UHGV virus genome: UHGV-0129084
Source: a virus
DNA length: 53,693 bases
Direction: 5' to 3' (one strand)
Positions 1 through 51,615 of this stretch are shown here, in pieces. The translations under genes and the position numbers were made by a program. The notes beneath the pieces are model-generated. The model saw only the letters and a program-made list of their open reading frames with translations, ran no database searches and was not told where the DNA came from. Every line of letters begins with the position of its first letter. Position 1 is the first letter of the stretch.

Positions 1-107
1 AACCCCCCCCCGCCTTTCTCGTTCCATCCTGGAACTGTGTCTTACCGACACATTGTCATCCTGACGCTGATAAGATACATGATTTAAAATGATAGGTAAA
101 CACTTAC

Positions 108-701
108 TTACTGCTTGTTGTAAACAAAACCAATATCTTTCTTGTGAGGCATATCTGCTGCGGAAAAAGCTGCGATCTTCGCGAGTCGATCACATATTTC
201 ATTTTCACGATGCCCGGCGTGACCTTTAACCCACTTCCAGCGAACATTATGTCGACTTGCAGCCTCATCCAGACGCTTCCACAGATCAACATTCTTTACC
301 GGTTTTTTGTCAGAAGTCACCCATCCATTGCGTTTCCACCATTTCATCCACTGTGTCATGCCGTTTTTCAGATACTGGCTATCAGAGTGCAAAATAACGT
401 TGCATGGATATTTCAAACGCTCCAGCCCGATAAGTGCCCCCATCATCTCCATGCGGTTATTGGTGGTGCTATGAAAACCATCTGAGAACTCGCGTTCCTC
501 ACCACGATACTGGAGAACGATACCGTAACCGCCCGGGCCACCCGGATTTTTAAGGCAAGAGCCATCACTAAAGATTTTCACGGTTTTAAGCTGGGGATTG
601 AACTCTACGACAGGCGTTGTGGGATTGGTGCGGGGGGAATTTTTGTTTTTGGCTTTTTTGCGAGTTTTTGCTTGCGATCGGGCTGGTGTCTTCGTCGTCA
701 T
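108..701 (-). CDS. Ribonuclease HI (RNase H) with basic N-terminal extension
   Basis: ORF 108..755; motifs [26 protein letters not shown] typical of RNase HI; start placed at in-frame ATG 701 preceded by AGGAG on the minus strand (706-710). Confidence 0.8.
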
Positions 702-1286
702 ATAAACTCCTGAATCAAGCGCCGCGCCGATTTTTTTCCTCGCGCGTGCGCACACGCGTGCGTGTTAATAATTATTAAAATAAACAAATTACTTCCCAGA
801 ACAGGTTTTAATAAAACCTGAACTGAACGAACGAAGTGAGTGAAGTTCACCTCGAACGAAGTGAGAGGTTGTCTTTTCAGGTAATACTCTCCCAGGGAGG
901 TGAGTACAAAATTTCCTCACCAACCTGGTCGTTTCATAACCTGAAAAGTTATGACCTAAGTCTACTGTCAGCTTAGGCTTGGGAAGTTATGGATGACAGC
1001 ACCCCAGAACCGAGATCTTCCCACACTTTATGAAGGGGAGTACTGGATTCAACCTCTCGAAACACCCCAGACTCGACAATCATAAAGTGACCCTTGTCTC
1101 CGCTCACTTTGGTTCCCCCTTCCCCGACACCTAAACGGCACCGGTTCTACGCTGGTAGTGAGCTTTTTTAAACCTGACGCCAGTGACGCTTACCCCCACC
1201 CATCAGGTCGAGTCTCCAGTCTACGACTGGAAACTATCAGATCTTAGCACTTACAATTCACTTTATGAATAGTTTGTACTTATCTA

Positions 1287-1541
1287 TCATTTCGATTGAT
1301 TATTTTCTCGACCATGTAGTTGAACATTCAAGGCAAACACCTCGTTAATCAACTCACCTAAAAGCTGTTCAACAAGTTCGCGATGCTCCCCAAGATGCAA
1401 GCACTTAATTGCCCATTCGTACAAGTTGAAAGCCTGCTCGCGATCTTTCATCATTTCACGGGCCTGGGCCAGAAAATCGCTCTCTACGAGCGCAACGACA
1501 TTAGTCGGGTATGACATGTTGGTTTCCTTAAAGTGGTTCAT
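1287..1541 (-). CDS. Hypothetical protein (84 aa)
   Basis: Intact ORF in the same orientation as neighbours; no recognisable motif. Confidence 0.35.
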   Translation of the reverse strand: MNHFKETNMSYPTNVVALVESDFLAQAREMMKDREQAFNLYEWAIKCLHLGEHRELVEQLLGELINEVFALNVQLHGRENNQSK

Positions 1542-2296: not shown

Positions 2297-2479
2297 CTTC
2301 TTTCTCTATAGGTAAGTATATACCTATTTTTGCATTTGATTTTATGTCTGGCAATCAAATAAAACGCGCCAGAAATGCAAACGAGAAGCTCTCTGGCGCG
2401 TTTTTGTGGTGCTGGGTATGTGATTGGCTTACCCAGTACTATAAAGCTCTCTATGGGCTTTATTTTAAGTAGGGGAACG

Positions 2480-6028: not shown

Positions 6029-7159
6029 TCACACCGCCACTGGAACCTTGATCCACGGTAGAGGGGCATAGCCAAGAATAAGAATCTCGTCCCATTTGAA
6101 ATCATCCAGCTCAGACCATTCATTAGGGAATATAACGACCGGATCTGAATGCTCTGGAGCCTGTCGTTGCATTAGCTCACACACACCTTCCATGTGGTTG
6201 TTGTACAAATGCACGTCAAAGCCAAAATGCACAAATGCACCGGCCATGTGACCCGTAATCTTCGCGAGAAAATGAGTGAGAATGCCATAGCCAGCAATAT
6301 TGAATGGCATACCAACAAAAGTGTCTACGCTACGCTGTACGAGGCAGGAGTTGAGGATGCGTTTGGGGATTCCAAGTGCATCCAGTTCAGTTTCAGTAAC
6401 ACTGCCGTCCATCTCCAGATCGTATAGCATCTTGGTGTAGATAGACTCATAACCGAGGCGACTGTGTTGAAGACCAATGTCAGTTGCCATCGTTAAACGG
6501 GTTTCAAAATCCAGTTCACGACTCCACAAAGAGAAGACAAAGTGGCAAGGTGGCAGTTTCATATCCTCAAGCTCGCCTACGTTCCATGCGTTAAGCATGA
6601 TGCGACGATCGGTAGGGTTCGTGCGCAGTGTATCGACAATACGCTGTAGCTGATCGATTTCACGGGACAGCACTACGCGATCTTCACTGATACCCAGGTA
6701 TCCCTCGACTTTGTACCCGCGTTCACGGAAAGTAGCGATCTTGCTCAGATATTCACTATGGCTCACGATGCGGGTATCTTCCCATCGACGCCACTGCTTA
6801 CCGTAAACCGGCCCCAAATCGCCATTCTCATCGGCCCATGCATCCCAAATCTTAACGCCGTTATCCTTGAGAAATTGGATGTTGCCCGTGCCTTTCAGAT
6901 ACCACTCAAGTTCGACAAGCAGTGGCTTAAGATTTACCGCCTTTCCAGAAATAAGCGGCACAGTCCCACCAGTAAGCATGTAGTAAGAGGGAACGTAGCA
7001 GGTGCTTAAAGTACCAGTGCCTGTGCGATCATCAGCCTGCACGCCGCTTTTAAGCACCGTCTCAATAACTTTTGCATACGATGCGTTTGTTACCTGACCG
7101 TTCGTATGCTCACGATTCAAAAGGAGTGACACAAAAACCTCACAAAGATAAGTAACCAC
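6029..7159 (-). CDS. thyA: Thymidylate synthase (ThyA) with two internal insertions
   Basis: DRTGTGT, LLVELEWYLKG, GDLGPVYGKQWRRW, catalytic LPPCH; 376 aa, longer than typical ThyA. Start uncertain: ORF begins with GTG at 7159, alternative GTG at 7132. Confidence 0.85.
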   Translation of the reverse strand: MVTYLCEVFVSLLLNREHTNGQVTNASYAKVIETVLKSGVQADDRTGTGTLSTCYVPSYYMLTGGTVPLISGKAVNLKPLLVELEWYLKGTGNIQFLKDNGVKIWDAWADENGDLGPVYGKQWRRWEDTRIVSHSEYLSKIATFRERGYKVEGYLGISEDRVVLSREIDQLQRIVDTLRTNPTDRRIMLNAWNVGELEDMKLPPCHFVFSLWSRELDFETRLTMATDIGLQHSRLGYESIYTKMLYDLEMDGSVTETELDALGIPKRILNSCLVQRSVDTFVGMPFNIAGYGILTHFLAKITGHMAGAFVHFGFDVHLYNNHMEGVCELMQRQAPEHSDPVVIFPNEWSELDDFKWDEILILGYAPLPWIKVPVAV

Positions 7160-7216
7160 TTATTCATTGCGTGAGTTTACATTTATTGAGAGAACAAGAC
7201 CAGACAGATAAAAAAA

Positions 7217-7235
7217 TGGTGGCCATAGGCCACCA
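7217..7235 (-). terminator. Rho-independent terminator after the 7304..8173 gene
   Basis: TGGTGGCC-ATA-GGCCACCA hairpin with A7 tract on the plus strand (T-run on minus). Confidence 0.6.
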
Positions 7236-7303
7236 AAAACGAATAGTTGTTTCAGAAATTTAACGCGCCAGCGCAATATACACAGATAGATAACTACCTA
7301 CAA

Positions 7304-8173
7304 TTATTTTTTGATCATTCCGTACATTGCTGAGGCTTTAGCTTGCTCAACAAAGGAGGATAAATCGACATCACTATAGGTTGGAGACTTCAGAATCTTT
7401 CCATCGGAAATTCGAAAACCGATCATCTTATCGGTGCCATCAGCATGGCGAAATCCCAGGTCAGAAGAGTCGTATTTGCAGTTGGCCACAGCATGGCGAC
7501 GCTCTTCGGCATCTGCAGGCCATAATTTTGTCATGTTGGACCGATGAATTTCGCCAACCAGCTCGACGACATTGATACCGAGAAAATCAGCCAGTCGATA
7601 AGTCATCATGCACGCCACATAGATTTTGTTCATTACACGGCGCAGTTCCTGAATCAGCTCAGAATCCTTAACAGTCTTCTTCTCAAGTTTATCTGCCAGC
7701 TCTTCGAGCATACATGACGCCTCACGAGCTTCCTGAAATGGCATTGCCATATCATCGAAAACAGTGTTACCAGGCACAAAAATTGTCTGCATAAAGCGAT
7801 CAATGCTCTGTTCCTGCGTGTAATAAGTCATGCCGGTAGAAATACCACCTTTGATGGCGACCATCGTACCAACACCAACGTATAAAAAGTCGGCCATTGC
7901 ATCCAGCAGTTGCTCAATATCCCCATTCATTGCGGCTGGAATACCTTCCACTACAGCTTCTTCATGAATCAGGCTTGCACGGAGACGAAGCAGCTCTGGT
8001 GTCGGCATAACGCGTCTCGGATGCTGGAAGAGTTCATGAAACTGATCGACCATCTTGTAAATACTTTCAGTGGCTACACCATGGCCTTCATGCAACTCAT
8101 ATGGTTCTGGCTTAAATCCAATGAGTCGATCGGTGGCAAGTTTCAGGTGGTCAGTCAGTTTGGTAAAGTTCAT
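7304..8173 (-). CDS. Hypothetical protein, possible all-alpha NTP pyrophosphohydrolase (MazG-like)
   Basis: 289 aa; helical acidic patches (LIHEEAVVEG...GDIEQLLDAMADF) reminiscent of MazG/HisE-type NTP-PPases; weak. Confidence 0.35.
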   Translation of the reverse strand: MNFTKLTDHLKLATDRLIGFKPEPYELHEGHGVATESIYKMVDQFHELFQHPRRVMPTPELLRLRASLIHEEAVVEGIPAAMNGDIEQLLDAMADFLYVGVGTMVAIKGGISTGMTYYTQEQSIDRFMQTIFVPGNTVFDDMAMPFQEAREASCMLEELADKLEKKTVKDSELIQELRRVMNKIYVACMMTYRLADFLGINVVELVGEIHRSNMTKLWPADAEERRHAVANCKYDSSDLGFRHADGTDKMIGFRISDGKILKSPTYSDVDLSSFVEQAKASAMYGMIKK

Positions 8174-9499: not shown

Positions 9500-11815
9500 T
9501 CAGATTTTGCAGGCTCCGTCGCACTCATCTTCTGGCTCGACGGCTACAGCTTGCGCCAGTGGATTCTGCGGTTCGTCGTCATCACGCTTTCCTGCACCAT
9601 CTCTGGTGTTGTGGTAATAAAGCGTTTTAACTCCCATCTTGTAGGCGAGAAGCAAATCTGACAGTAGCGTCATCATTGGGACTTTATCGCCTTCAAAGCG
9701 AGAAGGGTCATAGTTGGTATTGGCTGAAATAGCCTGGTCAAAGAACTTCTGGATGATCGCCACCTTTGTCAGATAGCCGCGGTTGTCCGGCATATCCCAC
9801 AGGTATTCATACTGTTCCTTCAGTTTTTCAAACTCAGGCACGACCATCTTAACGATGCCGTCCTTAGAAGATTTCACCGACACCGGGCCACGAGGCGGTT
9901 CGATGCCGTTGGTGGAATTAGTGATCTGGCTGGAAGTCTCGCATGGCATTTGTGCCGTCAGTGTGGAGTTGCGAAGGCCGTATTTTGCAATACGTTCACG
10001 CAGTTCTTCCCACGGCATCTTTAACTCAAAGTTGGTTTCGCCACTTTCGTCTAATGAAGAACGGTAATGGTCGATCGGCAACTGACCAATTGCGTATTTG
10101 GTCTGCTCAAACCAGTCACACTCACCTTTTGCTTCAGCAAGTCGGCAGCTGGCATCAAGAAGGTAATACTGGATAGCTTCGAATGTTTCATGCACCAGTT
10201 TATTGCCAGCGGTATCAGAATAACGAACGCCATTCTTTGCCAGGTAATAAGCAAAGTTGGTTACACCAATTCCCAAGCTACGACGAGCTTTGGCAGGCAC
10301 TTCGGCTGCCTCCATCGGATAGTCTTGATAATCCAGTAACGAATCCAGTGCAGCAACGGCATAGAACGCCACCTCTTTAAGAGACTCCAGTGAACGGATG
10401 GCTCCGAGGTTAAAAGCGGATAAAGTGCATAGCGCGATCTCACCGTTCGGGTCGTCGGTAAATGCCAGTGGACGGGTGGGTAGGGTGATCTCCATACACA
10501 GGTTTGACTGGCGGACAGGTGCAAGAGCAGGAATGAAAGCGCCATGCTCATTAATATGATCGACGTTCGCAATATAAATTCGGCCCGTGGACGCTCGTTC
10601 CTGCATCAGAGATGAGAACAGCTCAATGGCAGGTACTGACTTCTTGCGAATTGAATCATCGGCTTCGTATTTATGGTACAGCTTTTCAAACAGCTCCTGG
10701 TCTGTGAAGAAGGCTTCGTACATATCAGGCACATCATGCGGGCTGAACAGAGTGATGTTCTCGCTTCTGACGAGTCGACGGTACATTAGACGGTTACTCA
10801 TGACGCCGTAATCAAGATGGCGAACGCGGTTTTCATCAATACCACGGTTATTTTTCACCACCAGCAGACTTTCAACTTCAAGATGCCAGATCGGGTAAAA
10901 CGCTGTTGCTGCGCCACCACGAACACCACCTTGCGAACAAGATTTAACAGCCGTCTGGAAATGCTTCAGGAATGGAATAACTCCGGTATGGGTGGCTTCA
11001 CCATTGCGGATCTCGCTGCCCAGCGCACGGATACGGCCAAAACCAATACCAATTCCAGCACGACGTGAAACGTAGTCGATAATTGCGGCTGAAGCTGCAC
11101 TAATCCCTTTCAGACTATCGCCAGCTTCAATCAGCACACAACTGGAGAACTGACGGGTTGGAGTACGGACGCCGGCCATGATTGGTGTGGGCAGAGACAG
11201 TTTGAACGTACTTGTAACGTCATAGAAACCTTTGACCATCTCCATACGTGTTTTGCCAGCGCAGTCGTCTTCCCAATTCTGGAACAGACACATGCCTACC
11301 AGCATATAGATATGTTGCGGCCCCTCATGAATCTCACCAGTAACACGGTTTTGAACGAGGTATTTGCTTTGCAACTGCACCGTAGCTGCATAGCCAAAAA
11401 GATCGTCACGTTTAGGCTTAATGTAATTGCCGAGTTCTTCGATCTCTTCAAACGAATAATGTGTCAGCAAATCCTTGTCATAAACGCCCTTGTTAACGTT
11501 CTTGACAATGTGTTGGTAGAAGTTCGGATAGTCGTAACGACCGAAGGCATCTTTGCGGATTTTAAAAATGTTCAGGCGGGCAGCCACCTGTGAGTAATTT
11601 GGTGCTTCTGGTGAGATCAAATCAGCGGCAGATTTAACCAAAGCCTCATGCAACTGGCTGGTGGTCATCCCATCAAAAATGCTGGCCGCAGCTCCCATTG
11701 CTACAGCGGATGCGCTTACACCACGAATGCCTTCTACGCCATACATTACGACGCGGTTATATTTTTCTTCGGATAACGGCTCTGTTTGGCCGTTACGTTT
11801 TACGATGCTTATCAT
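9500..11815 (-). CDS. nrdA: Ribonucleotide reductase class Ia alpha subunit (NrdA)
   Basis: 771 aa; PTRQFSSCVLIE...SQGGVRGGAATAFYPIWHLEVESLLVVKNNRG near-identical to the E. coli NrdA active-site region. Confidence 0.92.
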   Translation of the reverse strand: MISIVKRNGQTEPLSEEKYNRVVMYGVEGIRGVSASAVAMGAAASIFDGMTTSQLHEALVKSAADLISPEAPNYSQVAARLNIFKIRKDAFGRYDYPNFYQHIVKNVNKGVYDKDLLTHYSFEEIEELGNYIKPKRDDLFGYAATVQLQSKYLVQNRVTGEIHEGPQHIYMLVGMCLFQNWEDDCAGKTRMEMVKGFYDVTSTFKLSLPTPIMAGVRTPTRQFSSCVLIEAGDSLKGISAASAAIIDYVSRRAGIGIGFGRIRALGSEIRNGEATHTGVIPFLKHFQTAVKSCSQGGVRGGAATAFYPIWHLEVESLLVVKNNRGIDENRVRHLDYGVMSNRLMYRRLVRSENITLFSPHDVPDMYEAFFTDQELFEKLYHKYEADDSIRKKSVPAIELFSSLMQERASTGRIYIANVDHINEHGAFIPALAPVRQSNLCMEITLPTRPLAFTDDPNGEIALCTLSAFNLGAIRSLESLKEVAFYAVAALDSLLDYQDYPMEAAEVPAKARRSLGIGVTNFAYYLAKNGVRYSDTAGNKLVHETFEAIQYYLLDASCRLAEAKGECDWFEQTKYAIGQLPIDHYRSSLDESGETNFELKMPWEELRERIAKYGLRNSTLTAQMPCETSSQITNSTNGIEPPRGPVSVKSSKDGIVKMVVPEFEKLKEQYEYLWDMPDNRGYLTKVAIIQKFFDQAISANTNYDPSRFEGDKVPMMTLLSDLLLAYKMGVKTLYYHNTRDGAGKRDDDEPQNPLAQAVAVEPEDECDGACKI

Positions 11816-11832
11816 GTATCACCAAATAAAGA

Positions 11833-11855
11833 GGGCCACTAAATATAGTGGCCCA
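11833..11855 (-). terminator. Rho-independent terminator after the RuvC-like gene
   Basis: GGGCCACTA-AATAT-TAGTGGCCC hairpin followed on the minus strand by TCTTTATTT. Confidence 0.55.
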
Positions 11856-11888
11856 TGTTAATAGATAAGTACCTACCTATCAATGAAA

Positions 11889-16431: not shown

Positions 16432-16685
16432 GTGTTTTTCCTTTGTGGTTATTTTGATACAAATTCTAAGAGCAATGAGGAGGTAAACAACTATGCATAA
16501 CGGTATGTTAGGAATGAAACGAGCGCCTTAATATACAAAATTTATAAGTAAGTATATACCTATTTATCGTGGCGCAACTTTGCTTGTCTGTATGACTAAA
16601 AATAAGACAGGATCACTGTAGAACGCTATGAGAGCTATTTTGAGGGGGCGTAGATTCTATCTACGCCAATATACGATCTGGAGGG

Positions 16686-20616: not shown

Positions 20617-20671
20617 GTGTTTTTCCTTTTGTGGTTAGTGTTTACTTATTTTGTTAGTTATGAATAGGCGA

Positions 20672-22022: not shown

Positions 22023-22223
22023 TTATTTCCCTTTTGCTTTGATTAATGAGTTGATAAACTTACGACCAGCAATAAGACCGATTACAGGAGCACCAAAACC
22101 AACGATAACTCCAAACATGACGGCTAAATCACTCTTGGTAGAAATCAGCGACGGAACCAGTAAACCGTAGATGAGAGCCACTGAAAGGCCTGTGGCTACT
22201 GCCAATAGATAGATTTTGATCAT
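22023..22223 (-). CDS. Small integral membrane protein (66 aa)
   Basis: Two predicted hydrophobic helices; directly upstream of, and co-oriented with, the SPFH gene. Confidence 0.45.
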   Translation of the reverse strand: MIKIYLLAVATGLSVALIYGLLVPSLISTKSDLAVMFGVIVGFGAPVIGLIAGRKFINSLIKAKGK

Positions 22224-22291
22224 GTGTTTTCCTATGTGGTTGTTATGCGAAAATAATAAGTAAGTACTTATATATTTTCAAGAGATAAAAA

Positions 22292-22310
22292 AGGCGTCCT
22301 GTGGACGCCT
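22292..22310 (-). terminator. Rho-independent terminator after the RecA-like gene
   Basis: AGGCGTCC-TGT-GGACGCCT hairpin (same stem as the 21153 terminator) with T-run on the minus strand. Confidence 0.65.
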
Positions 22311-22315
22311 TGTGT

Positions 22316-24662: not shown

Positions 24663-25691
24663 TTACAGAGAGTCCAGCTCTCTCAGTAGGTCATCCAGAC
24701 CTTCATCTTCCGTCGCAGATGCGGCTGCTACAGATGTCGCTGCGACTGCTTCAGACTCTTTGACTGATACTGCAACGGCAGCGGAACTTGCTTCTGGTTT
24801 AAATTCAGTTTCAACGGCACGGAGGATTTCTTCATCAACCAGACTGGTTGGTTCAGAAGCTGGGGTATGAGCGGTAGCTACAGCCGTCGCACCCTCCGTA
24901 TGACCAGTGACAGAGCCAAATCCAGGTAGTGCCGCAGCCGATGTTTTCGCGGTTGAGGAAATTGCTGGTGCAGATGCTGCGGCAGTTGGTGCAGCGATGC
25001 CAATCAGACGACCCATAGTGCGAACTGTCGACAGAAGACGAGTTTCATCAGCCTGATTTGCGTATGCGATCAGATCATGCTGGGTATTCCAGAATTTATC
25101 TTCGATATCGCCTTTGTAGACTTTACGCTTAGGCGAGACGTCATATTTGGTATCGCGACCAGAGCCAGTACGTTTAATCAGGAATGCGTAGCCTTCCTCT
25201 TTGCTCAGTGGATTGCCGATATCATCAGCGATGTCTTCGGTGATTGCTTTGCAGATATCATCGAATACAGTAGACGGCAGCTCGATTAACTGGCATTTCT
25301 CAGCATCTGCGAAATCCTCACGAGCAGAAAGAATGCCGTTGACCAGGTAGCGAGGAGTGGCACGCATTTGACCGATGCGTTCTTCCATTGCTTTGTTACC
25401 CTTGTGACGAGCGCGACCTTCCATAACCATTTCGCATAGCTGACAAGCGCGACCGTGAGTATGTTGCTCACAAATATAAGCGTTGGTTGCTTCTTTACCT
25501 TCCTCGTTCTGATACTTAACGTAGTGCATACCGAAAGTCTGGAAGAACTTACCGTTTGGGTCGTCTTTATTCGGGAAGATGCGGATATAGTTGACGCCGT
25601 CTTTTAAGCGAGTCAGATCAACGTTGTTGCCACGTTTGGCGGCAATGTCTTCACGAGTTTTGTTAAGCAAATCAAGTAATGTCTTAGACAT
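24663..25691 (-). CDS. Single-stranded DNA-binding protein (T4 gp32-like)
   Basis: 342 aa; GVNYIRIFPNKDDPNGKFF resembles the gp32 N-terminal region; Cys/His cluster CEQHTHGRACQLC; acidic C-terminal tail DEGLDDLLRELDSL. Confidence 0.55.
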   Translation of the reverse strand: MSKTLLDLLNKTREDIAAKRGNNVDLTRLKDGVNYIRIFPNKDDPNGKFFQTFGMHYVKYQNEEGKEATNAYICEQHTHGRACQLCEMVMEGRARHKGNKAMEERIGQMRATPRYLVNGILSAREDFADAEKCQLIELPSTVFDDICKAITEDIADDIGNPLSKEEGYAFLIKRTGSGRDTKYDVSPKRKVYKGDIEDKFWNTQHDLIAYANQADETRLLSTVRTMGRLIGIAAPTAAASAPAISSTAKTSAAALPGFGSVTGHTEGATAVATAHTPASEPTSLVDEEILRAVETEFKPEASSAAVAVSVKESEAVAATSVAAASATEDEGLDDLLRELDSL

Positions 25692-25808
25692 GTGTTTCTC
25701 CTTGTTGTGATTTGGCCGATGGCGCTATGCGCGTTGGGCTTTCGTTCATTCGTGGCTCTTTCGAGCTGTTAAATGATAGATCAGTACTTACTTATTATCT
25801 ATCAAAAA

Positions 25809-38482: not shown

Positions 38483-39260
38483 AATTCAGCACTGCCAGTA
38501 TTTATTACTCAACAGTGCCAATCGCGACGGTTTAGTTTCTGCCAGGAAACGCACCGCTACTTGCACTTTTCGTTAGTGCCAGACGCTTTCGACTTCGCTC
38601 AATAGTAGAAGGCAAAATCTTTAAGTAGATGATGTTTCTGAGGACAGCACCTACTTTGTAATTTATACAATGTGATGTATGGAATCATTTGTTGTGAAAA
38701 CAGGCACCAATGGCAACAGTGGTTAAACCTACACAACAATCCTGTCTTCACAACGTTGAGGCCACTACTCCGATTGAATGTTTGCCCAACATGTTACATA
38801 TCAACGCTCGCCGGTATCTCTGTGAATAGAACCTTAGAATTGATAAAAATGTAATGGCCTCAACGTTGTGTGCTGGCTAACCATACCAGCCGGGCTACGT
38901 CGCCGCTTTTTAACCCAGTATAAACGACATAATTGAACAAAATGACGTAACAGGATGGGCGGTCAGTGGCTAAGAATCCGGGAGTCATATGGAGTTGAAA
39001 ATATACCAACCGCCCATTCTGTTACTTCATCGGAGGGAACATTCATGTTCCCTCCTGCGTTCTGCAATCACACTCGCTCAGTGTGTCCCATTTCGGTAAC
39101 GAGGCTGGAAACTGACCTCGCTGGTGTTTGGCTTATTAGGCTACTGCCAGATAGACTTCTTCGTTTGCACTTGTATTTAAGTTCAAACAGTCGCGTCTCA
39201 ACGAAAACAAAGTCATCTTATACATAAAAGATAAGTAAGTAAATACTTATCATTGTATTT

Positions 39261-39551
39261 TTATTCGGTTGTGACTTTTTTGATCAAGGCCACTCTACGA
39301 CTAGGTGTTCTTGTGATGGTGGCAGTGAACCGTTTCGCTTGGATAGTAATGGTTTCGTTCTCCTTAAGTTGCCCGTAGCGAGTTTCCACCAGGGTGCCAA
39401 GACGCCACAGACCATCATCGATACGTTTATGACTAGCAAATTTTATCAGCAACAGTTTTACGACTAACTGACCTACGTAAAAGGCGAGTGCGACTCCGGC
39501 CGCTAAGAAATAGGTGGCCAACCACCAGTCCCAAGAAGTTAAATTGCTCAT
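39261..39551 (-). CDS. Membrane protein (96 aa, N-terminal transmembrane helix)
   Basis: WDWWLATYFLAAGVALAFYVGQLVV hydrophobic segment. Confidence 0.4.
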   Translation of the reverse strand: MSNLTSWDWWLATYFLAAGVALAFYVGQLVVKLLLIKFASHKRIDDGLWRLGTLVETRYGQLKENETITIQAKRFTATITRTPSRRVALIKKVTTE

Positions 39552-41710: not shown

Positions 41711-41765
41711 AAATAATCTTGTGCTTACCTATCATTATTTGCGTAAAAAACGACACACTGAGAGC

Positions 41766-42548
41766 TTACCAACTTCCCCAGCTAATCATCTTGCGCTGAT
41801 CGCTTTCTAAGCGATAGGGGACAAGAAGCTCTGTGACATGATTGGTGGCGTATGATTTAGCCTCTTGCTCTATCATCGGTAATTCGTTAGCAATCCTGAC
41901 CATCTTCCCAGCAAACTCCGCCATTACGCCATCACATGCCTTCCCAGCATCAATAACGATATGCACCAGATCCAACTGGCTTTTGCACATGTCCCAAAGA
42001 GTCGAATATTCGCTCTCTCTGATTACATTTACGGCATCATTAGCCCCTTTATTAAGCAAGACTTCCAACAGGTTTGTCGGGGTAACGAAATCGGCTTTAA
42101 GTGACAATGTTCTCTCACCTTTTATCGACCGTAAGTACTCTTCGTAGTTTTGCTTGTCTTCCAGCAAAACTAAGCTATGCATAGTTAGAAGTGATTCCTG
42201 AATAGCCTCTTCAATAATACTGTCGTTTGGCGCACAAAAAACGGTATTTGTGTAGATCACTTTGCCATCCATCCATGCCCCAACCTGCACTTTAAGACTG
42301 ATCGGGTTTTCTTTGCTAATAAAAACAACTAATGCAGAACGCCGTGCACAAGAAGGTTCACCCCATACGTGTAACTTAACCTTCAGATAAGGTAGCCCCG
42401 GTAGCGGGATCTCGACCAAACGAGTGGCGATATGATCCATTGCTGTTTTTACGGCTTTTTCAATGATGTCTAGCCGATTGCACTCGCTGATTTCTAAACC
42501 AGTTTTATCAATGATGTCGCAGGCTAATTTCTGAATTTCGTCTTTCAT
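41766..42548 (-). CDS. Hypothetical protein (260 aa)
   Basis: Between ligase and primase; could be a replisome accessory factor but no motif recognised. Confidence 0.4.
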   Translation of the reverse strand: MKDEIQKLACDIIDKTGLEISECNRLDIIEKAVKTAMDHIATRLVEIPLPGLPYLKVKLHVWGEPSCARRSALVVFISKENPISLKVQVGAWMDGKVIYTNTVFCAPNDSIIEEAIQESLLTMHSLVLLEDKQNYEEYLRSIKGERTLSLKADFVTPTNLLEVLLNKGANDAVNVIRESEYSTLWDMCKSQLDLVHIVIDAGKACDGVMAEFAGKMVRIANELPMIEQEAKSYATNHVTELLVPYRLESDQRKMISWGSW

Positions 42549-42623
42549 ACCAACTCCTAGCTAACAGATGAAAGTATTCTCACAGAAAGATAAGTAATCA
42601 TCTACTTATTTTAGCGGCACTTG

Positions 42624-45270: not shown

Positions 45271-46020
45271 TTAATTAGATAGGGGATCAATAAACCGCCG
45301 TGCTTCTTCCAGTTCTTCTGGAAAGTGGGCGGAAATAAGGCGCTCTGGAACGATTTCCATTAACCAGATAGCGGAGAAAATTGCGCGTATGCGCTTGCTG
45401 CGGGGGATGGTGCGTAAACGCTCCAGAATCCACCCAAAATAGCTTTCCTGAATCGGGTTGAACTGCATGTCTCCCATATGCTTAAAGCTAACGAGAGAGT
45501 CATCCAGACGGGTTGTTGCGCGTCTGGCTAATTTCTCTTCGAATATCTCAATCAGCTCTGGCTGCCATAAATGCTGTGGGCGCGGCAGCTTGTCCCACAG
45601 CCGTCGTGCAGCTGCGGAAAGAACGGTGGAGATAAAGTAGTCGTATGAGCAGCAATAGCGATCCGCAAACTGGCGTGCTTTCCATAGCGACGTTTTGTTG
45701 GCAGTCGACAACTCCTGATAAGGCAGACGTTTTAACCCGGTGGTGAACGGAGCTGTTTCAAAGTGTTCGCGACCGTGCGTCAGCATGATATTTGAGTACT
45801 GACGTTTGTATGCCTCCGTAAAAAGACAGGTGGCCATGAGAGGATGCATGTCGCGGTAATCAAACCACTTCGTCTCGAAGAGTTCAGCCTCGTCTTTACA
45901 GCGCGACAAACCAATGTTTTCAGCAACCCACTTGTCCATAACAGCGGTATTCCACTCTGTCATGAAGTCGTACTGGTTGTTGTCGATGGTATCGAAAAAG
46001 ATTTGGCTCATGTGGCTCAC
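45271..46020 (-). CDS. Hypothetical protein (249 aa)
   Basis: First gene of the helicase-primase run; no P-loop, so not a DnaC-type loader. Confidence 0.4.
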   Translation of the reverse strand: MSHMSQIFFDTIDNNQYDFMTEWNTAVMDKWVAENIGLSRCKDEAELFETKWFDYRDMHPLMATCLFTEAYKRQYSNIMLTHGREHFETAPFTTGLKRLPYQELSTANKTSLWKARQFADRYCCSYDYFISTVLSAAARRLWDKLPRPQHLWQPELIEIFEEKLARRATTRLDDSLVSFKHMGDMQFNPIQESYFGWILERLRTIPRSKRIRAIFSAIWLMEIVPERLISAHFPEELEEARRFIDPLSN

Positions 46021-46127
46021 CTGGTAGGTTGTTACTTACTTATCACGATGAGCGGATGATAGCGACTGGTGGCAGTTTTTGGAAGTGTAAACGGAAGGGA
46101 ATGTATCTGGGAAGTCAGCAGAGAAAA

Positions 46128-46185
46128 GACCTGCTTCCGTATAAATAATAATAAGTAACTTAATATTTATATACAGAAGCAGGTC
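46128..46185. repeat. Inverted-repeat element (16-bp arms, 26-bp AT-rich spacer), copy 2
   Basis: GACCTGCTTCCGTATA ... TATACAGAAGCAGGTC; shares core and the same single arm mismatch with the element at 1624-1680. Confidence 0.6.
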
Positions 46186-46383
46186 AAAAACCAACCCAAC
46201 CTAGTTTTTAGTCTCATGGTAGGCAACCTTAAGATCTACTTCAAAACAGCTGCACGCCAGACGGTTGCAACATTGTTAAGTGTAACAAATTATTGTAGAT
46301 TACTCAGACACAGAATAGCGTCTACAACTTAAGAAACGTCCAGAAATAAACAATGTACCAATCACGTAGAAAGGGAATTAAGA

Positions 46384-50707: not shown

Positions 50708-50769
50708 GAAAAGTCAAATCGGGATGGCGGTTTTATATCATAAAACGCCCACACTTGGTAGGTAAGTAC

Positions 50770-51615
50770 TTACACATGAGCGCCGTAAATTGCCCCAGCT
50801 TTAGTCCAAGTTGGAGCATTACCGGTAACAGCTTTACCAGCTGCGCCACCTCCGTACAATGTCCCCACTCGTCCAGTTGCAGCGGCACCAGCAGCCCCCA
50901 CATTACCTCCACTACCGCATGTATATTGGACAGCATTAGAGCCGATCACATATTGAGCGCCAATCCCGGCAGCGGTTAGAGTGCCAGAAGTTGCCGCCCG
51001 CGAATTTGAAGCTGGTGGCCTTGTAGTGTTTGCAACACCAAACGGGCGACCGCCCCCACCCATACCACCATCGAGTGAGCTACCGCCACCGCCACCGCCA
51101 CCGCCGGCAATAGCGCCATTATTGGTTATTCTTAAACGGGTCCCAATTCCGTTGTTAATAGCAGTGCCACCGGCAGCACCGCCACCTTTAACGCCACCAT
51201 TACCGCCACGGCCATAGACAGTTACACCTGCGTTGATTACCAGGCTGATATAAGAGTTGGTAAGCGAACTTGGGAAATCTAAACATGGCACGCCGCTACT
51301 GGACGACACCAGATCCCCTGTAATGGTAACAACGACTGGCGTCGCCCCCTGGGATTTTAAATAGTTGATCAGTGTGTCTTTGTTGTAGTTATGATTCGCA
51401 CCGATGCTGTACTGAACTTCTTTAGATCGCCCGGCCATTTGAGACATTGAACCAGCCGCTGGCAGTTGCACCGCCGTTCGAGCCGCACTCATCCATCTCT
51501 GGCCTGTCACACTGACAGCCGAAGACCCAATCCAACCGGGAACACCGACAATTGGCACATCTAATCTCCTTTTTGATGTGAATATCCTGAATTGGTGAGG
51601 GTGGCCCCTCACCAT
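50770..51615 (-). CDS. Glycine-rich tail-fibre-associated protein (gp38-like adhesin, speculative)
   Basis: 281 aa; poly-Gly tracts (GGGGGGGGSSLDGGMGGGGRP) separated by short segments; immediately downstream of the tail fibre gene. Confidence 0.45.
   Translation of the reverse strand: MVRGHPHQFRIFTSKRRLDVPIVGVPGWIGSSAVSVTGQRWMSAARTAVQLPAAGSMSQMAGRSKEVQYSIGANHNYNKDTLINYLKSQGATPVVVTITGDLVSSSSGVPCLDFPSSLTNSYISLVINAGVTVYGRGGNGGVKGGGAAGGTAINNGIGTRLRITNNGAIAGGGGGGGGSSLDGGMGGGGRPFGVANTTRPPASNSRAATSGTLTAAGIGAQYVIGSNAVQYTCGSGGNVGAAGAAATGRVGTLYGGGAAGKAVTGNAPTWTKAGAIYGAHV

What the first reader, a model, noticed from the sequence alone, without database searches (positions are those of the whole stretch)
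22255..22271. Family of ATAAGTAAGTAC-like partially palindromic motifs upstream of many replication genes
Variants of ATA(A/G)GTA-N(2-6)-TAC(T/C)TAT occur close to the starts of at least nine minus-strand genes: around 2308-2327, 7148-7163, 11865-11880, 16545-16565, 22255-22271, 25784-25800, 39232-39249, 42591-42608 and 46031-46045 (coordinates approximate). Some are in reverse orientation. The positions (about 15-110 nt upstream of start codons) fit a phage-specific promoter or activator-binding element rather than host sigma70 -35/-10 boxes.
Basis: seen in the sequence. Interest (0 to 1): 0.5.

Follow-up and report, generated by a model that had tools for sequence, protein, structure and literature searches.

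The report
Phage-plasmid repressor operator sites
The repeated motif is a real 20-base palindrome found about 25 times in this SSU5-type phage-plasmid, and it is most likely the binding site through which a small phage-encoded repressor keeps most lytic genes silent in the plasmid state.

Summary
All nine listed sites exist, and a matrix built from other genomes finds 14 strong sites in the window against 0.2 expected, nearly all in the 11% that is non-coding.

The window is an SSU5-like phage-plasmid, 98% identical to Escherichia phages CMS-2020a and PhiR41_1. The motif is a nested 20-bp palindrome, ATA(R)GTAAGT|ACTTAC(Y)TAT. Only spacings 7-N2-7 and 7-N6-7 occur. The half-sites vary independently, which points to a dimeric protein site on DNA, not an RNA hairpin.

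About 25 sites per genome sit at orthologous intergenic positions in E. coli, Salmonella and Klebsiella relatives, in front of late structural genes as well as replication genes. The sites overlap sigma-70-like promoters in at least three geometries. At 22256 the layout is terminator, TTGAAA, 17 bases holding the palindrome, TATTAT.

The best candidate binder is the Xre-type HTH protein at 34067-34453. It has an operator on its own promoter. Its recognition region changes together with the motif in Acinetobacter relatives. SSU5 lacks the gene but keeps the sites.

The best reading is a dispersed repressor-operator network, not an activator site or phage-specific promoter. No binding has been shown.

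The parts
22256..22275 (.). Operator at the finding's coordinates. Gene sense reads ATATATAAGTACTTACTTAT; the perfect 16-mer ATAAGTAAGTACTTAT is 22256-22271. It lies in the spacer and -10 of a promoter for the small membrane protein gene 22023-22223 and the SPFH gene.
   Evidence: 0 mismatches; 26.2 bits; conserved in PhiR41_1, SSU5 and pC714_2
22253..22281 (-). Sigma-70-like promoter TTGAAA (22281-22276), 17 nt, TATTAT (22258-22253) that encloses the operator.
   Evidence: Top promoter-like hit of the 20-40 kb scan, 10 of 12 matches. The layout is conserved as TTGATG-17-TATTAT in pC714_2.
22291..22311 (-). Intrinsic-terminator-like hairpin AAGGCGTCCACAGGACGCCTT followed by a T-run, ending the recA-like gene just upstream of the promoter.
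92..111 (.). Operator GTAAGTAAGTGTTTACCTAT at the 3' end of gene 108-755.
   Evidence: 25.2 bits; orthologous sites at SSU5 79904 and pJN2 16842
2308..2327 (.). Operator ATAGGTATATACTTACCTAT, 11 nt upstream of the ATG of gene 1703-2296. An extended -10 (TGcAAAAAT) lies just upstream, so the operator would cover the transcription start.
   Evidence: 27.5 bits; promoter TTGCCA-17-AAAAAT with TG; TGnAAAAAT also read in the SSU5 and pJN2 flanks
7148..7167 (.). Operator (16-mer ATAAGTGGTTACTTAT) upstream of thyX, downstream of a terminator at 7217-7235.
   Evidence: 1 mismatch
11861..11880 (.). Operator ATAGGTAGGTACTTATCTAT upstream of nrdA (9500-11815), overlapped by promoter-like TTGATA-17-TAACAT and followed by a hairpin at 11833-11854.
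   Evidence: 26.2 bits
16544..16563 (.). Operator ATAGGTATATACTTACTTAT, 112 nt upstream of sbcD. A -10-like TATATT lies 8 nt downstream.
   Evidence: 27.4 bits
20303..20322 (.). Operator ATAAGTTAGTATCTACCTAT directly before the ATG of a small membrane protein gene (CYRAN_60 homologue).
   Evidence: 21.8 bits; promoter-like hits overlap it; conserved in SSU5 and pJN2
25776..25795 (.). Operator ATAAGTAAGTACTGATCTAT, 84 nt upstream of the gp32-like SSB gene (24663-25691).
   Evidence: 25.6 bits; promoter-like TAGATA-17-TATCAT
31359..31378 (.). Operator (16-mer ATAAGTAACCACTTAC) upstream of the CobS-like gene. A -10-like TATATT lies 8 nt downstream and is conserved in SSU5 and pJN2.
34018..34037 (.). 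Variant operator ATCGGTAAGCACTTACCAGA at about +1 of the promoter TTTACA-16-TAATAT (33993-34020) of the HTH gene. This is the presumed autoregulatory site.
   Evidence: the orthologous variant lies at pJN2 90499; pC714_2 has two copies
34067..34453 (+). Candidate binder: a 128-aa Xre/cI-type HTH protein (CYRAN_45 'putative repressor') next to the integrase gene.
   Evidence: Weak HTH_19 hit; lambda-repressor-like fold; homologues in about 1000 SSU5-like plasmids; co-variation with the motif; absent from SSU5; expressed in the lysogen (PMC9928086)
39231..39250 (.). Operator ATAAGTATTTACTTACTTAT after gene 39261-39551, about 750 nt upstream of the tRNA cluster.
   Evidence: 26.3 bits
42590..42609 (.). 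Operator ATAAGTAGATGATTACTTAT (7-N6-7 only), 41 nt upstream of gene 41766-42548. An extended -10-like TGTGAGAAT lies downstream.
   Evidence: 20.1 bits
46024..46043 (.). Operator ATAAGTAAGTAACAACCTAC just upstream of gene 45271-46020.
   Evidence: 18.9 bits
50758..50777 (.). Operator ATGTGTAAGTACTTACCTAC upstream of the holin/lysis genes.
   Evidence: 21.3 bits; orthologues at SSU5 27474 and pJN2 69442
1268..1287 (.). Weak motif copy. Other weak copies lie at 7286-7305, 20630-20649 and 41713-41732.
   Evidence: 8-13 bits; all four are intergenic, but individually they are near chance level

Best explanation
The motif is the operator of a phage-encoded dimeric DNA-binding repressor. The most likely binder is the 128-aa Xre/cI-type HTH protein encoded at 34067-34453 beside the integrase gene.

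Each SSU5-type phage-plasmid carries about 25 copies of a nested 20-bp palindrome, ATA(R)GTAAGT|ACTTAC(Y)TAT. The copies lie in or against the core of sigma-70-type promoters: in the -35/-10 spacer, over the -10, or over the transcription start. They precede most lytic transcription units, early and late.

In the plasmid (lysogenic) state, repressor bound at these sites would exclude or block host RNA polymerase at every unit directly. A weaker variant operator on the repressor's own promoter would give autoregulation.

**Shown here:** the sequence family, its statistics, its conservation, its promoter context and its co-variation with the HTH protein. **Inferred:** binding, repression, and the identity of the binder.
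For: **Real and specific**
- Enrichment of 10-80 fold over shuffles.
- Only spacings 2 and 6 are enriched.
- The exact 20-mer occurs in IMG/VR only on SSU5-like contigs.

**A DNA-protein site, not RNA**
- The palindrome's half-sites vary independently.
- At outer position 4/17 the counts are A-T 20, G-C 10, G-T 14 and A-C 14. There is no excess of wobble pairs over mismatches on the sense strand.
- No Rfam family overlaps the sites.

**Conserved function**
- There are 23-27 sites per genome at orthologous intergenic places in PhiR41_1, SSU5 and Klebsiella pJN2-26, while the flanks diverge.
- The core persists in pC714_2, whose SSB is 42% identical.

**Promoter overlap**
- TTGAAA-17-TATTAT at 22256 is the best promoter-like hit in its 20 kb.
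- 4 of 5 minus-strand promoter-like hits there overlap sites, although such hits are depleted overall (16 against 28 expected).
- The promoter layout at 22256 is conserved in pC714_2.
- The best promoter score near a site is higher in the gene direction than in the opposite direction (8.7 against 6.9, Wilcoxon p = 2e-5).
- Predicted -10 starts cluster at motif positions -3, 18 and 21.

**Link to the HTH protein**
- A variant operator sits at about +1 of its own promoter. pC714_2 has two copies there, and the Acinetobacter control region has about three by my reading.
- Homologues are present in about as many plasmids as the SSB gene (996 against 976).
- The protein family is narrow, and most of its clusters with long contigs lie on contigs of about 100-115 kb.
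- Motif class follows the recognition region. [K/E][N/K][A/P]N[N/I] goes with TAAGT in five lineages, including Photorhabdus. (K/E)RPNV goes with TCAGT in Acinetobacter NZ_CP149832 and in metagenome contig L053. NQNM goes with TTAGTAAGC|GCTTACTAA in pDD520.
- The model has a lambda-repressor-like HTH with helix 3 at residues 41-47.

**Repressor and not activator**
- SSU5 lacks the HTH gene, the integrase and the divergent small gene, yet keeps about 25 sites.
- CYRAN_45 is expressed in the Cyrano lysogen. None of the other lysogen-expressed genes that lie in the scanned stretch has a strong site directly in front of it.
Against: - No binding or expression data exist for any site.
- Any phage-encoded protein inherited together with the HTH gene would show the same lineage-level co-variation.
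- Many sites have poor -35 hexamers. Several lie 11-16 nt from a start codon, or between a stop codon and a terminator-like hairpin. In those places a simple promoter-occlusion model does not fit, and a roadblock or some other role would be needed.
- Two spacings 4 bp apart cannot both fit one rigid dimer, so the binding register is unresolved.
- Pfam HTH hits are below the gathering thresholds, and the Foldseek E-values are weak.
- The promoter statistics use orthologous sites from three genomes, which are not independent.
- That SSU5 grows lytically is taken from my own knowledge of the literature, not from a tool result.
Confidence: 0.6

Rival explanations
1. This is the first reader's idea: an activator-binding site or phage-specific promoter element. 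A phage-encoded activator, or a sigma-appropriation system, binds the palindrome in place of a -35 element and switches on the lytic genes.
For: - Canonical sigma-70 promoters are depleted in the window.
- Many sites have no good -35.
- A subset has a -10 or extended -10 (TGTAAGAAT, TATATT, CATAAT) 7-9 nt downstream of the 20-mer, which would centre the palindrome near -31.
- Acinetobacter relatives encode a sigma-70 family protein.
Against: - The position relative to the predicted -10 is not fixed. It includes sites over the -10 and over the transcription start, among them the 2308 site and the HTH gene's own promoter.
- The two-fold symmetry is unlike promoter elements.
- The best candidate binder is dispensable in SSU5.
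- tblastn found no homologue of the Acinetobacter sigma-like protein in the enteric genomes, and the 20 window proteins scanned with Pfam show no sigma-factor domain.
- The same site precedes early and late genes, which a single activator would not order in time.
Confidence: 0.15
2. The palindrome is bound by another phage protein with a role other than promoter repression. Examples are a Cro-like lytic regulator, an elongation roadblock or insulator at unit boundaries, or a DNA-organising or partition-related protein.
For: - Some sites lie between a stop codon and a terminator-like hairpin (after the capsid gene; before nrdA), or directly against ribosome-binding sites.
- The divergent 70-aa gene next to the HTH gene has no recognised domain and could share the sites.
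Against: - Association with promoter-like -10 hexamers is directional, and it persists in lineages with a different palindrome (TATACT or TATAAT directly after the Acinetobacter motifs).
- The densest clusters of variant sites lie in the HTH gene's control region.
Confidence: 0.12
3. The sites are bound by a host factor. The leading candidate is the nucleoid-occlusion protein SlmA, which would couple the plasmid to cell division.
For: The inner 12 bp of the perfect motif, GTAAGTACTTAC, fits the published SlmA site. That site requires G, T, A and G at positions 1, 2, 4 and 5, accepts any purine at position 3 (G to A gave a Kd of about 60 nM) and any pyrimidine at position 6 (PMC3020112).
Against: - Only 2 of about 16 window sites, and 1-6 per genome, are full matches.
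- The best-conserved bases are the outer heptamers, which SlmA does not need.
- The motif changes in Acinetobacter lineages in step with a phage protein.
Confidence: 0.04
4. The motif is an RNA-level element: a hairpin in the 5' leader that acts as a translational operator or processing site.
For: Several sites lie 11-16 nt upstream of start codons, next to Shine-Dalgarno sequences.
Against: - There is no covariation between the arms, and G-T and A-C mismatches are equally frequent.
- A 2-nt spacer cannot form a loop.
- Some sites lie upstream of the predicted transcription start.
- There are no Rfam matches.
Confidence: 0.03

Closest known systems
Phage P1 C1 repressor and its dispersed operators (from my own knowledge of the P1 literature)
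   Same: Both are phage-plasmids. In both, one immunity repressor acts at many operators scattered over a roughly 100-kb genome, directly controlling replication, recombination and other lytic functions, not a single early promoter pair.
   Different: - P1 operators are asymmetric 17-bp sites, and C1 is an unrelated protein.
- Here the site is a nested 20-bp palindrome and the candidate binder is a small Xre/cI-type HTH protein.
- P1 late genes are controlled indirectly through Lpa. Here the same site also precedes structural and lysis genes.
Stoperators of Cluster A mycobacteriophages (L5 gp71, Bxb1) (from my own knowledge)
   Same: Both have about 25-35 repressor sites per genome in short intergenic gaps, in early and late regions. 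Some lie away from any promoter, where they could only act on elongation.
   Different: Stoperators are asymmetric 13-14-bp sites. They are bound by a monomer and are oriented with transcription. The sites here are two-fold symmetric, and many overlap promoter-like hexamers.
Lambdoid cI / 434 / P22 c2 repressor-operator systems and other Xre-type HTH regulators (R-M controller C proteins, HigA, SaPI Stl)
   Same: - The predicted HTH domain superposes on C.AhdI, C.BclI, HigA, the P22 c2, 434 and lambda repressors, and a Salmonella temperate-phage repressor.
- It shares palindromic operators, an operator on its own promoter, and a divergently transcribed small gene.
   Different: - It has no S24 peptidase or LexA-like cleavage domain (128 aa, all helical).
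- Its operators are spread genome-wide, not gathered in two clusters.
- The nested 4-bp-periodic half-sites give two spacings.
- Sequence similarity to solved repressors is marginal.

Membership tests
Xre/cI-type HTH repressor with palindromic operators | Two-fold symmetric operator whose half-sites are read independently by a dimer | tested here: met
   A 20-bp palindrome; the half-sites vary independently, with no covariation.
Xre/cI-type HTH repressor with palindromic operators | Protein with a lambda-repressor-like five-helix HTH domain | tested here: met
   - AlphaFold model with pLDDT 82.8 and helices at 28-34 and 41-47.
- Foldseek matches to C.AhdI, P22 c2 and 434 repressor with TM 0.7-0.8 on the target, rmsd 1.5-3 A.
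- The Pfam HTH_19 and HTH_3 hits lie below the gathering scores.
Xre/cI-type HTH repressor with palindromic operators | Operators overlap core promoter elements | tested here: met
   Shown at 22256, 25776, 20303, 11861, 2308 and 34018. About 27 of 60 sites have the best predicted -10 starting at motif position -3, 18 or 21. These are predictions only.
Xre/cI-type HTH repressor with palindromic operators | Operator at the repressor's own promoter (autoregulation) | tested here: met
   Variant operators are conserved upstream of the HTH gene in the window, pJN2-26, pC714_2 and both Acinetobacter lineages.
Xre/cI-type HTH repressor with palindromic operators | Direct, specific binding of the protein to the sites, and repression in vivo | not testable with these tools
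   Needs EMSA or footprinting, ChIP-seq and reporter assays.
LexA-like self-cleaving phage repressors (lambda cI type) | C-terminal S24 peptidase domain | tested here: not met
   128 aa, all helical, with no Peptidase_S24 hit.
P1 C1-type dispersed operator network | Many operators dispersed over a phage-plasmid genome | tested here: met
   23-27 sites per genome.
P1 C1-type dispersed operator network | Asymmetric 17-bp operator and a C1-family protein | tested here: not met
   The site is palindromic and the candidate protein is Xre-type. The P1 consensus is taken from memory.
Mycobacteriophage stoperators | Asymmetric sites oriented with transcription | tested here: not met
   The motif and its flanks are essentially symmetric.
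Mycobacteriophage stoperators | Sites in short intergenic gaps throughout early and late regions | tested here: met
Sigma-70 -35 / -10 hexamers | The motif itself matches TTGACA or TAnnnT | tested here: not met
   The 4-base TAnn period excludes TAnnnT inside the 20-mer (read from the consensus). The -10-like hexamers only arise at its edges.
Position-dependent activator site (MotA-box or class II type) | Fixed distance between the site and the -10 | tested here: not met
   Predicted -10 starts are spread over motif positions -17 to +50, with three main classes.
SlmA-binding site | 12-bp GT(R)AG(Y)(R)CT(Y)AC | tested here: not met
   Only 2 window sites and 1-6 per genome match in full. The consensus comes from PMC3020112.

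The most novel reading that the evidence does not exclude
One small Xre-type repressor directly gates almost every lytic transcription unit of a 108-kb phage-plasmid, early and late alike. If so, the switch from plasmid to virus would need no transcriptional cascade.

The operator would be a nested, 4-bp-periodic array of four half-sites that offers two binding registers (7-N2-7 and 7-N6-7). That could allow alternative or higher-order binding.

A few perfect sites also coincide with high-affinity SlmA sites, so a link between plasmid position and cell division is not excluded.
Probability: 0.15. Interest if true: 0.6.

Novelty: new member of a known kind. Interest (0 to 1): 0.45.

Why it matters
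SSU5-type phage-plasmids (pHCM2, pMT1-related, pLF82/Cyrano and the Klebsiella and Acinetobacter relatives) make up about a thousand plasmids in PLSDB. Published work reports that they carry resistance genes (PMC9600943).

I found no description of their lysis-lysogeny control. No paper in the searchable library holds any of the four motif strings I searched for.

The result gives four things that can be tested directly:
- a defined operator;
- a candidate repressor;
- a predicted regulon of about 25 promoters;
- a first recognition-helix-to-operator correspondence across lineages.

With these, immunity groups, induction and superinfection exclusion between these plasmids become testable, for example whether pHCM2-like plasmids protect Salmonella from SSU5.

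The principle itself, a repressor with many dispersed operators, is already known from P1 and from mycobacteriophages.

Tried and rejected
- **Chance or AT-richness.** Rejected by dinucleotide shuffles, by an independent matrix, and by the spacing control.
- **RNA hairpin.** Rejected. There is no covariation and the mismatch types are symmetric.
- **The motif as a -10 or -35 hexamer.** Rejected from the consensus.
- **An apparent asymmetric extension (CTTAT).** When the sites are anchored on the 20-mer, this is simply the outer half of a nested palindrome.
- **A fixed downstream -10.** There is no sharp information peak; only a modest T-A-T-Y-A-T at the edge of the motif, which is largely mirrored upstream.
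- **A phage sigma factor.** One is present in Acinetobacter relatives only. tblastn found no homologue in the enteric genomes, and the 20 window proteins scanned with Pfam have no sigma-factor domain.
- **SlmA.** The inner 12-mer fits, but few sites are complete.
- **NarL/NarP heptamers.** TACYYMT (consensus from memory) matches TACTTAT, but the halves here are everted relative to the 7-2-7 NarL arrangement. Not pursued.
- **Literature.** No paper holds any of the four motif strings searched for, or describes SSU5 operators. One 2026 preprint on a phage-plasmid could not be opened.
- **Locus L056 (homologue P0074).** It is not in a phage-plasmid context and was not used.

Full report
**What the window is.** The window is 98% identical to Escherichia phages CMS-2020a and PhiR41_1, 96% to Cyrano (the pLF82 phage-plasmid of E. 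coli LF82) and 80% to Salmonella phage SSU5. It covers the replication, recombination and nucleotide-metabolism half of an SSU5-type phage-plasmid. It also holds RepA, an integrase with an adjacent 'putative repressor', a tRNA cluster, ParA and the start of the lysis genes. Nearly all genes run on the minus strand.

**Checking the observation.** ATAAGTAAGTAC with up to two mismatches occurs 23 times against 2.9 expected. The palindrome ATAAGTANNTACTTAT with up to three mismatches occurs 22 times against 1.9. A weight matrix trained only on SSU5 and Klebsiella pJN2-26 sites finds 14 window sites at 14 bits or more, against 0.17 in shuffles. Ten of these lie in the 11% of the window that a crude ORF model calls non-coding. 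By my reading, three of the four 'coding' calls rest on a spurious or over-extended ORF or fall just upstream of an annotated start.

**Anatomy of the motif.** Scanning ATARGTA-N(k)-TACYTAT for k = 0-10 shows enrichment only at k = 2 and k = 6, with a weak echo at k = 10; the other spacings give almost nothing. So the spacer is not loosely variable. The element is a nested 20-bp palindrome, ATA(R)GTAAGT|ACTTAC(Y)TAT, built from TARG/TAAG units with a 4-base period. The perfect form, ATAGGTAAGTACTTACCTAT, is its own reverse complement. Most sites have the two outer heptamers plus one inner half-site. That explains the anti-correlation seen when sites are anchored on the 16-mer. The flanks are also roughly symmetric. 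At outer position 4/17 the two arms vary independently: A-T 20, G-C 10, G-T 14, A-C 14. There is no compensatory change and no preference for G-U over A-C on the sense strand. This is what a dimeric protein reading two half-sites on DNA predicts, and it argues against an RNA hairpin. No Rfam family overlaps the sites.

**Distribution and conservation.** The complete genomes of PhiR41_1, SSU5 and pJN2-26 carry 23, 25 and 27 sites (raw scans). They occupy orthologous intergenic positions while the flanks diverge. They are not confined to replication genes. Sites precede or follow the terminase, portal, capsid, tail, tail-fibre and holin genes as well. The exact degenerate 20-mer occurs in 39 stretches of the IMG/VR collection, all of which align to SSU5-like genomes. 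In Klebsiella plasmid pC714_2, whose SSB is only 42% identical, the core ATAAGTnnnnACTTAT is still found in front of the orthologous genes.

**Promoter context.** Consensus sigma-70 promoters are depleted in the window: 21 against 31.8 expected in 1-20 kb, and 16 against 28.3 in 20-40 kb. Even so, the best promoter-like match in 20-40 kb is TTGAAA-17-TATTAT, which encloses the site of the finding. Four of the five minus-strand matches in that stretch overlap motif sites. At 22256 the order on the gene strand is:
- terminator hairpin (22311-22291);
- -35 TTGAAA;
- a 17-nt spacer filled by the palindrome;
- -10 TATTAT, whose first three bases are the end of the palindrome;
- ribosome-binding site and ATG at 22223.

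This layout is kept in SSU5 (TATCAT) and in pC714_2 (TTGATG-17-TATTAT), although the surrounding sequence has diverged. The same layout, TTGAAA-17-TATGAT, occurs inside the 3' end of the portal gene in all three complete genomes.

Other sites have other geometries. At 2308, and at the HTH gene's own promoter, the -10 lies just upstream, so the palindrome covers the transcription start. Upstream of the CobS-like gene, sbcD and gene 41766-42548, a -10 or extended -10 lies 7-9 nt downstream. Over 60 sites, the best promoter score within 45 nt is higher in the gene direction than in the opposite direction (8.7 against 6.9, Wilcoxon p = 2e-5), even though the motif is symmetric. The predicted -10 starts cluster at motif positions -3, 18 and 21. 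Orthologous sites are not independent, so the true sample is nearer 25 loci. Several geometries, all overlapping core promoter elements, fit a repressor. They do not fit an activator that must sit at a fixed distance.

**The candidate binder.** The gene at 34067-34453 (+) encodes a 128-aa protein annotated in Cyrano as a putative repressor. It is one of the few Cyrano genes expressed in the lysogen (PMC9928086). It has weak Xre-type HTH hits. A confident model (pLDDT 82.8) has a helix-turn-helix at residues 28-34 and 41-47. The model superposes on R-M controller proteins, HigA, the P22 c2, 434 and lambda repressors, and a Salmonella temperate-phage repressor.

Its promoter, TTTACA-16-TAATAT, is followed at about +1 by a variant palindrome, ATCGGTAAGCACTTACCAGA. 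The equivalent variant lies in front of the pJN2-26 homologue. Two copies precede the pC714_2 homologue. By my reading of the intergenic sequence, about three lie in the Acinetobacter control region.

Homologues occur in 996 plasmids, about the same number as the SSB gene at 976. In a search of 5.8 billion proteins the family is narrow, and most of its clusters with long contigs lie on contigs of about 100-115 kb.

**Co-variation.** More distant relatives keep the gene order but use a different palindrome at the same places.

| Lineage | Palindrome | Residues before and at the start of helix 3 |
|---|---|---|
| E. coli, Salmonella, two Klebsiella lineages, Photorhabdus | TAAGT class | KNANN, KNPNN, KNPNI, ENANN, EKANN |
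| Acinetobacter NZ_CP149832 | ATCAGTCAGT\|ACTGAC..., often followed by TATACT | KRPNV |
| Metagenome contig L053 | TCAGT-N4-ACTGA | ERPNV |
| Acinetobacter pDD520 | ATTAGTAAGC\|GCTTACTATAAT | NQNM |

Three operator classes therefore track three recognition-region classes over eight lineages. In the Acinetobacter lineages a -10-like hexamer (TATACT or TATAAT) abuts the palindrome on the gene side only. This shows that the -10 is a separate element and that placing the operator in the spacer is a conserved design. The co-variation supports a phage-encoded binder and points to this HTH protein. Any co-inherited DNA-binding protein would show the same pattern at this resolution.

**Repressor or activator.** SSU5 lacks the HTH gene, the integrase and the divergent small gene, yet it retains about 25 sites. 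From my own knowledge, SSU5 is propagated as a plaque-forming phage. If that is right, the promoters work without this protein, so it cannot be an essential activator. In Cyrano, strong sites precede thyX, nrdA, sbcD, the SSB gene, the CobS-like gene and others. None of these is among the lysogen-expressed genes, and the toxin-antitoxin and other expressed genes within the scanned stretch have no strong site directly upstream. This fits repression but does not prove it, because all lytic genes are silent in a lysogen under either model.

**What does not fit.**
- Several sites lie 11-16 nt from a start codon.
- Several lie between a stop codon and a terminator-like hairpin (after the capsid gene, and before nrdA). 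Promoter occlusion does not obviously apply there; a roadblock role, or none, is possible.
- The two spacings differ by 4 bp, and a rigid dimer cannot use both.
- Many -35 hexamers are poor.

**Rivals considered.**
- *Activator site or phage-specific promoter.* Disfavoured by the variable geometry and the symmetry. tblastn found no homologue of the Acinetobacter sigma-like protein in the enteric genomes, and the 20 window proteins scanned with Pfam have no sigma-factor domain.
- *Host SlmA site.* The inner GTAAGTACTTAC fits the published SlmA specificity (PMC3020112). However, only 2 window sites and 1-6 per genome are complete, and the most conserved bases lie outside the 12-mer.
- *RNA element.* Rejected for lack of covariation.
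- *Chance.* Excluded.

**Comparison with known systems.** In function, the closest parallels are the dispersed C1 operators of phage-plasmid P1 and the stoperators of Cluster A mycobacteriophages. In both, one immunity repressor acts at many sites across the genome. Those sites are asymmetric and their proteins are unrelated. By fold and operator symmetry, the system belongs with Xre/cI-type phage repressors, but it lacks a self-cleavage domain and its operators are spread genome-wide. I found no description of this motif, or of SSU5 operators, in the searchable literature. I therefore rate it a new member of a known kind. It is useful for a clinically common plasmid family, but the principle is not surprising.

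Noticed in passing
window about 1625-1690 and 46130-46195 (also SSU5 33473, 78319, 103278; pJN2-26 15285, 38548, 74858): A long hairpin element present in three copies per genome: CCTGCTTCnGTATATATAA, an AT-rich loop, TTATATATACGGAAGCAGG, then a T-run. Copies show compensatory arm changes (for example CTGCTTTCG/CGAAAGCAG). It looks like a structured terminator. Its loop resembles the operator and scores as a weak motif hit.
   Followed up: partly
window 36329-37512 (+): An IS3-family insertion: OrfA with HTH_Tnp_1 at 36329-36667 and OrfB with an rve integrase core at 36694-37512. No such feature is annotated at the corresponding place in Cyrano, where the highly expressed CYRAN_43 lies nearby.
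   Followed up: no
window 34023-34034 and 50762-50773: Two operator copies contain a complete match to the published SlmA-binding consensus GT(R)AG(Y)(R)CT(Y)AC. pJN2-26 has six such copies.
   Followed up: partly
L052 15101-15766 (pDD520) and L051 13631-14314: Acinetobacter relatives encode a sigma-70 family protein between the CobS-like gene and DNA polymerase III alpha. tblastn finds no homologue in the enteric SSU5-like genomes.
   Followed up: partly
SSU5 genome (L005-L007) compared with window 33603-35551: SSU5 lacks the HTH repressor, the integrase and the divergent 70-aa gene that are present in the window and in PhiR41_1, pJN2-26 and pC714_2. This suggests that the type phage is an immunity-deleted derivative.
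   Followed up: partly
window 38500-39230 (minus-strand sense), SSU5 41793 onward, pJN2-26 83386 onward: A non-coding stretch is conserved downstream of the 39231 operator (TTGTTTTCGTTGAGACGCGACTGTTTGAAC...), ahead of the tRNA-Asn/Tyr/Thr/Ser cluster at 37829-38482. No Rfam family matches it.
   Followed up: no
window 11833-11854 with 11855-11883: Upstream of nrdA, the predicted promoter TTGATA-17-TAACAT would start transcription inside the 5' arm of the terminator-like hairpin. The hairpin could then stop read-through from upstream without stopping transcripts from this promoter.
   Followed up: no
window 1-40000: Sigma-70 consensus promoter matches are fewer than in shuffled sequence: 21 against 31.8 in 1-20 kb, and 16 against 28.3 in 20-40 kb.
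   Followed up: no
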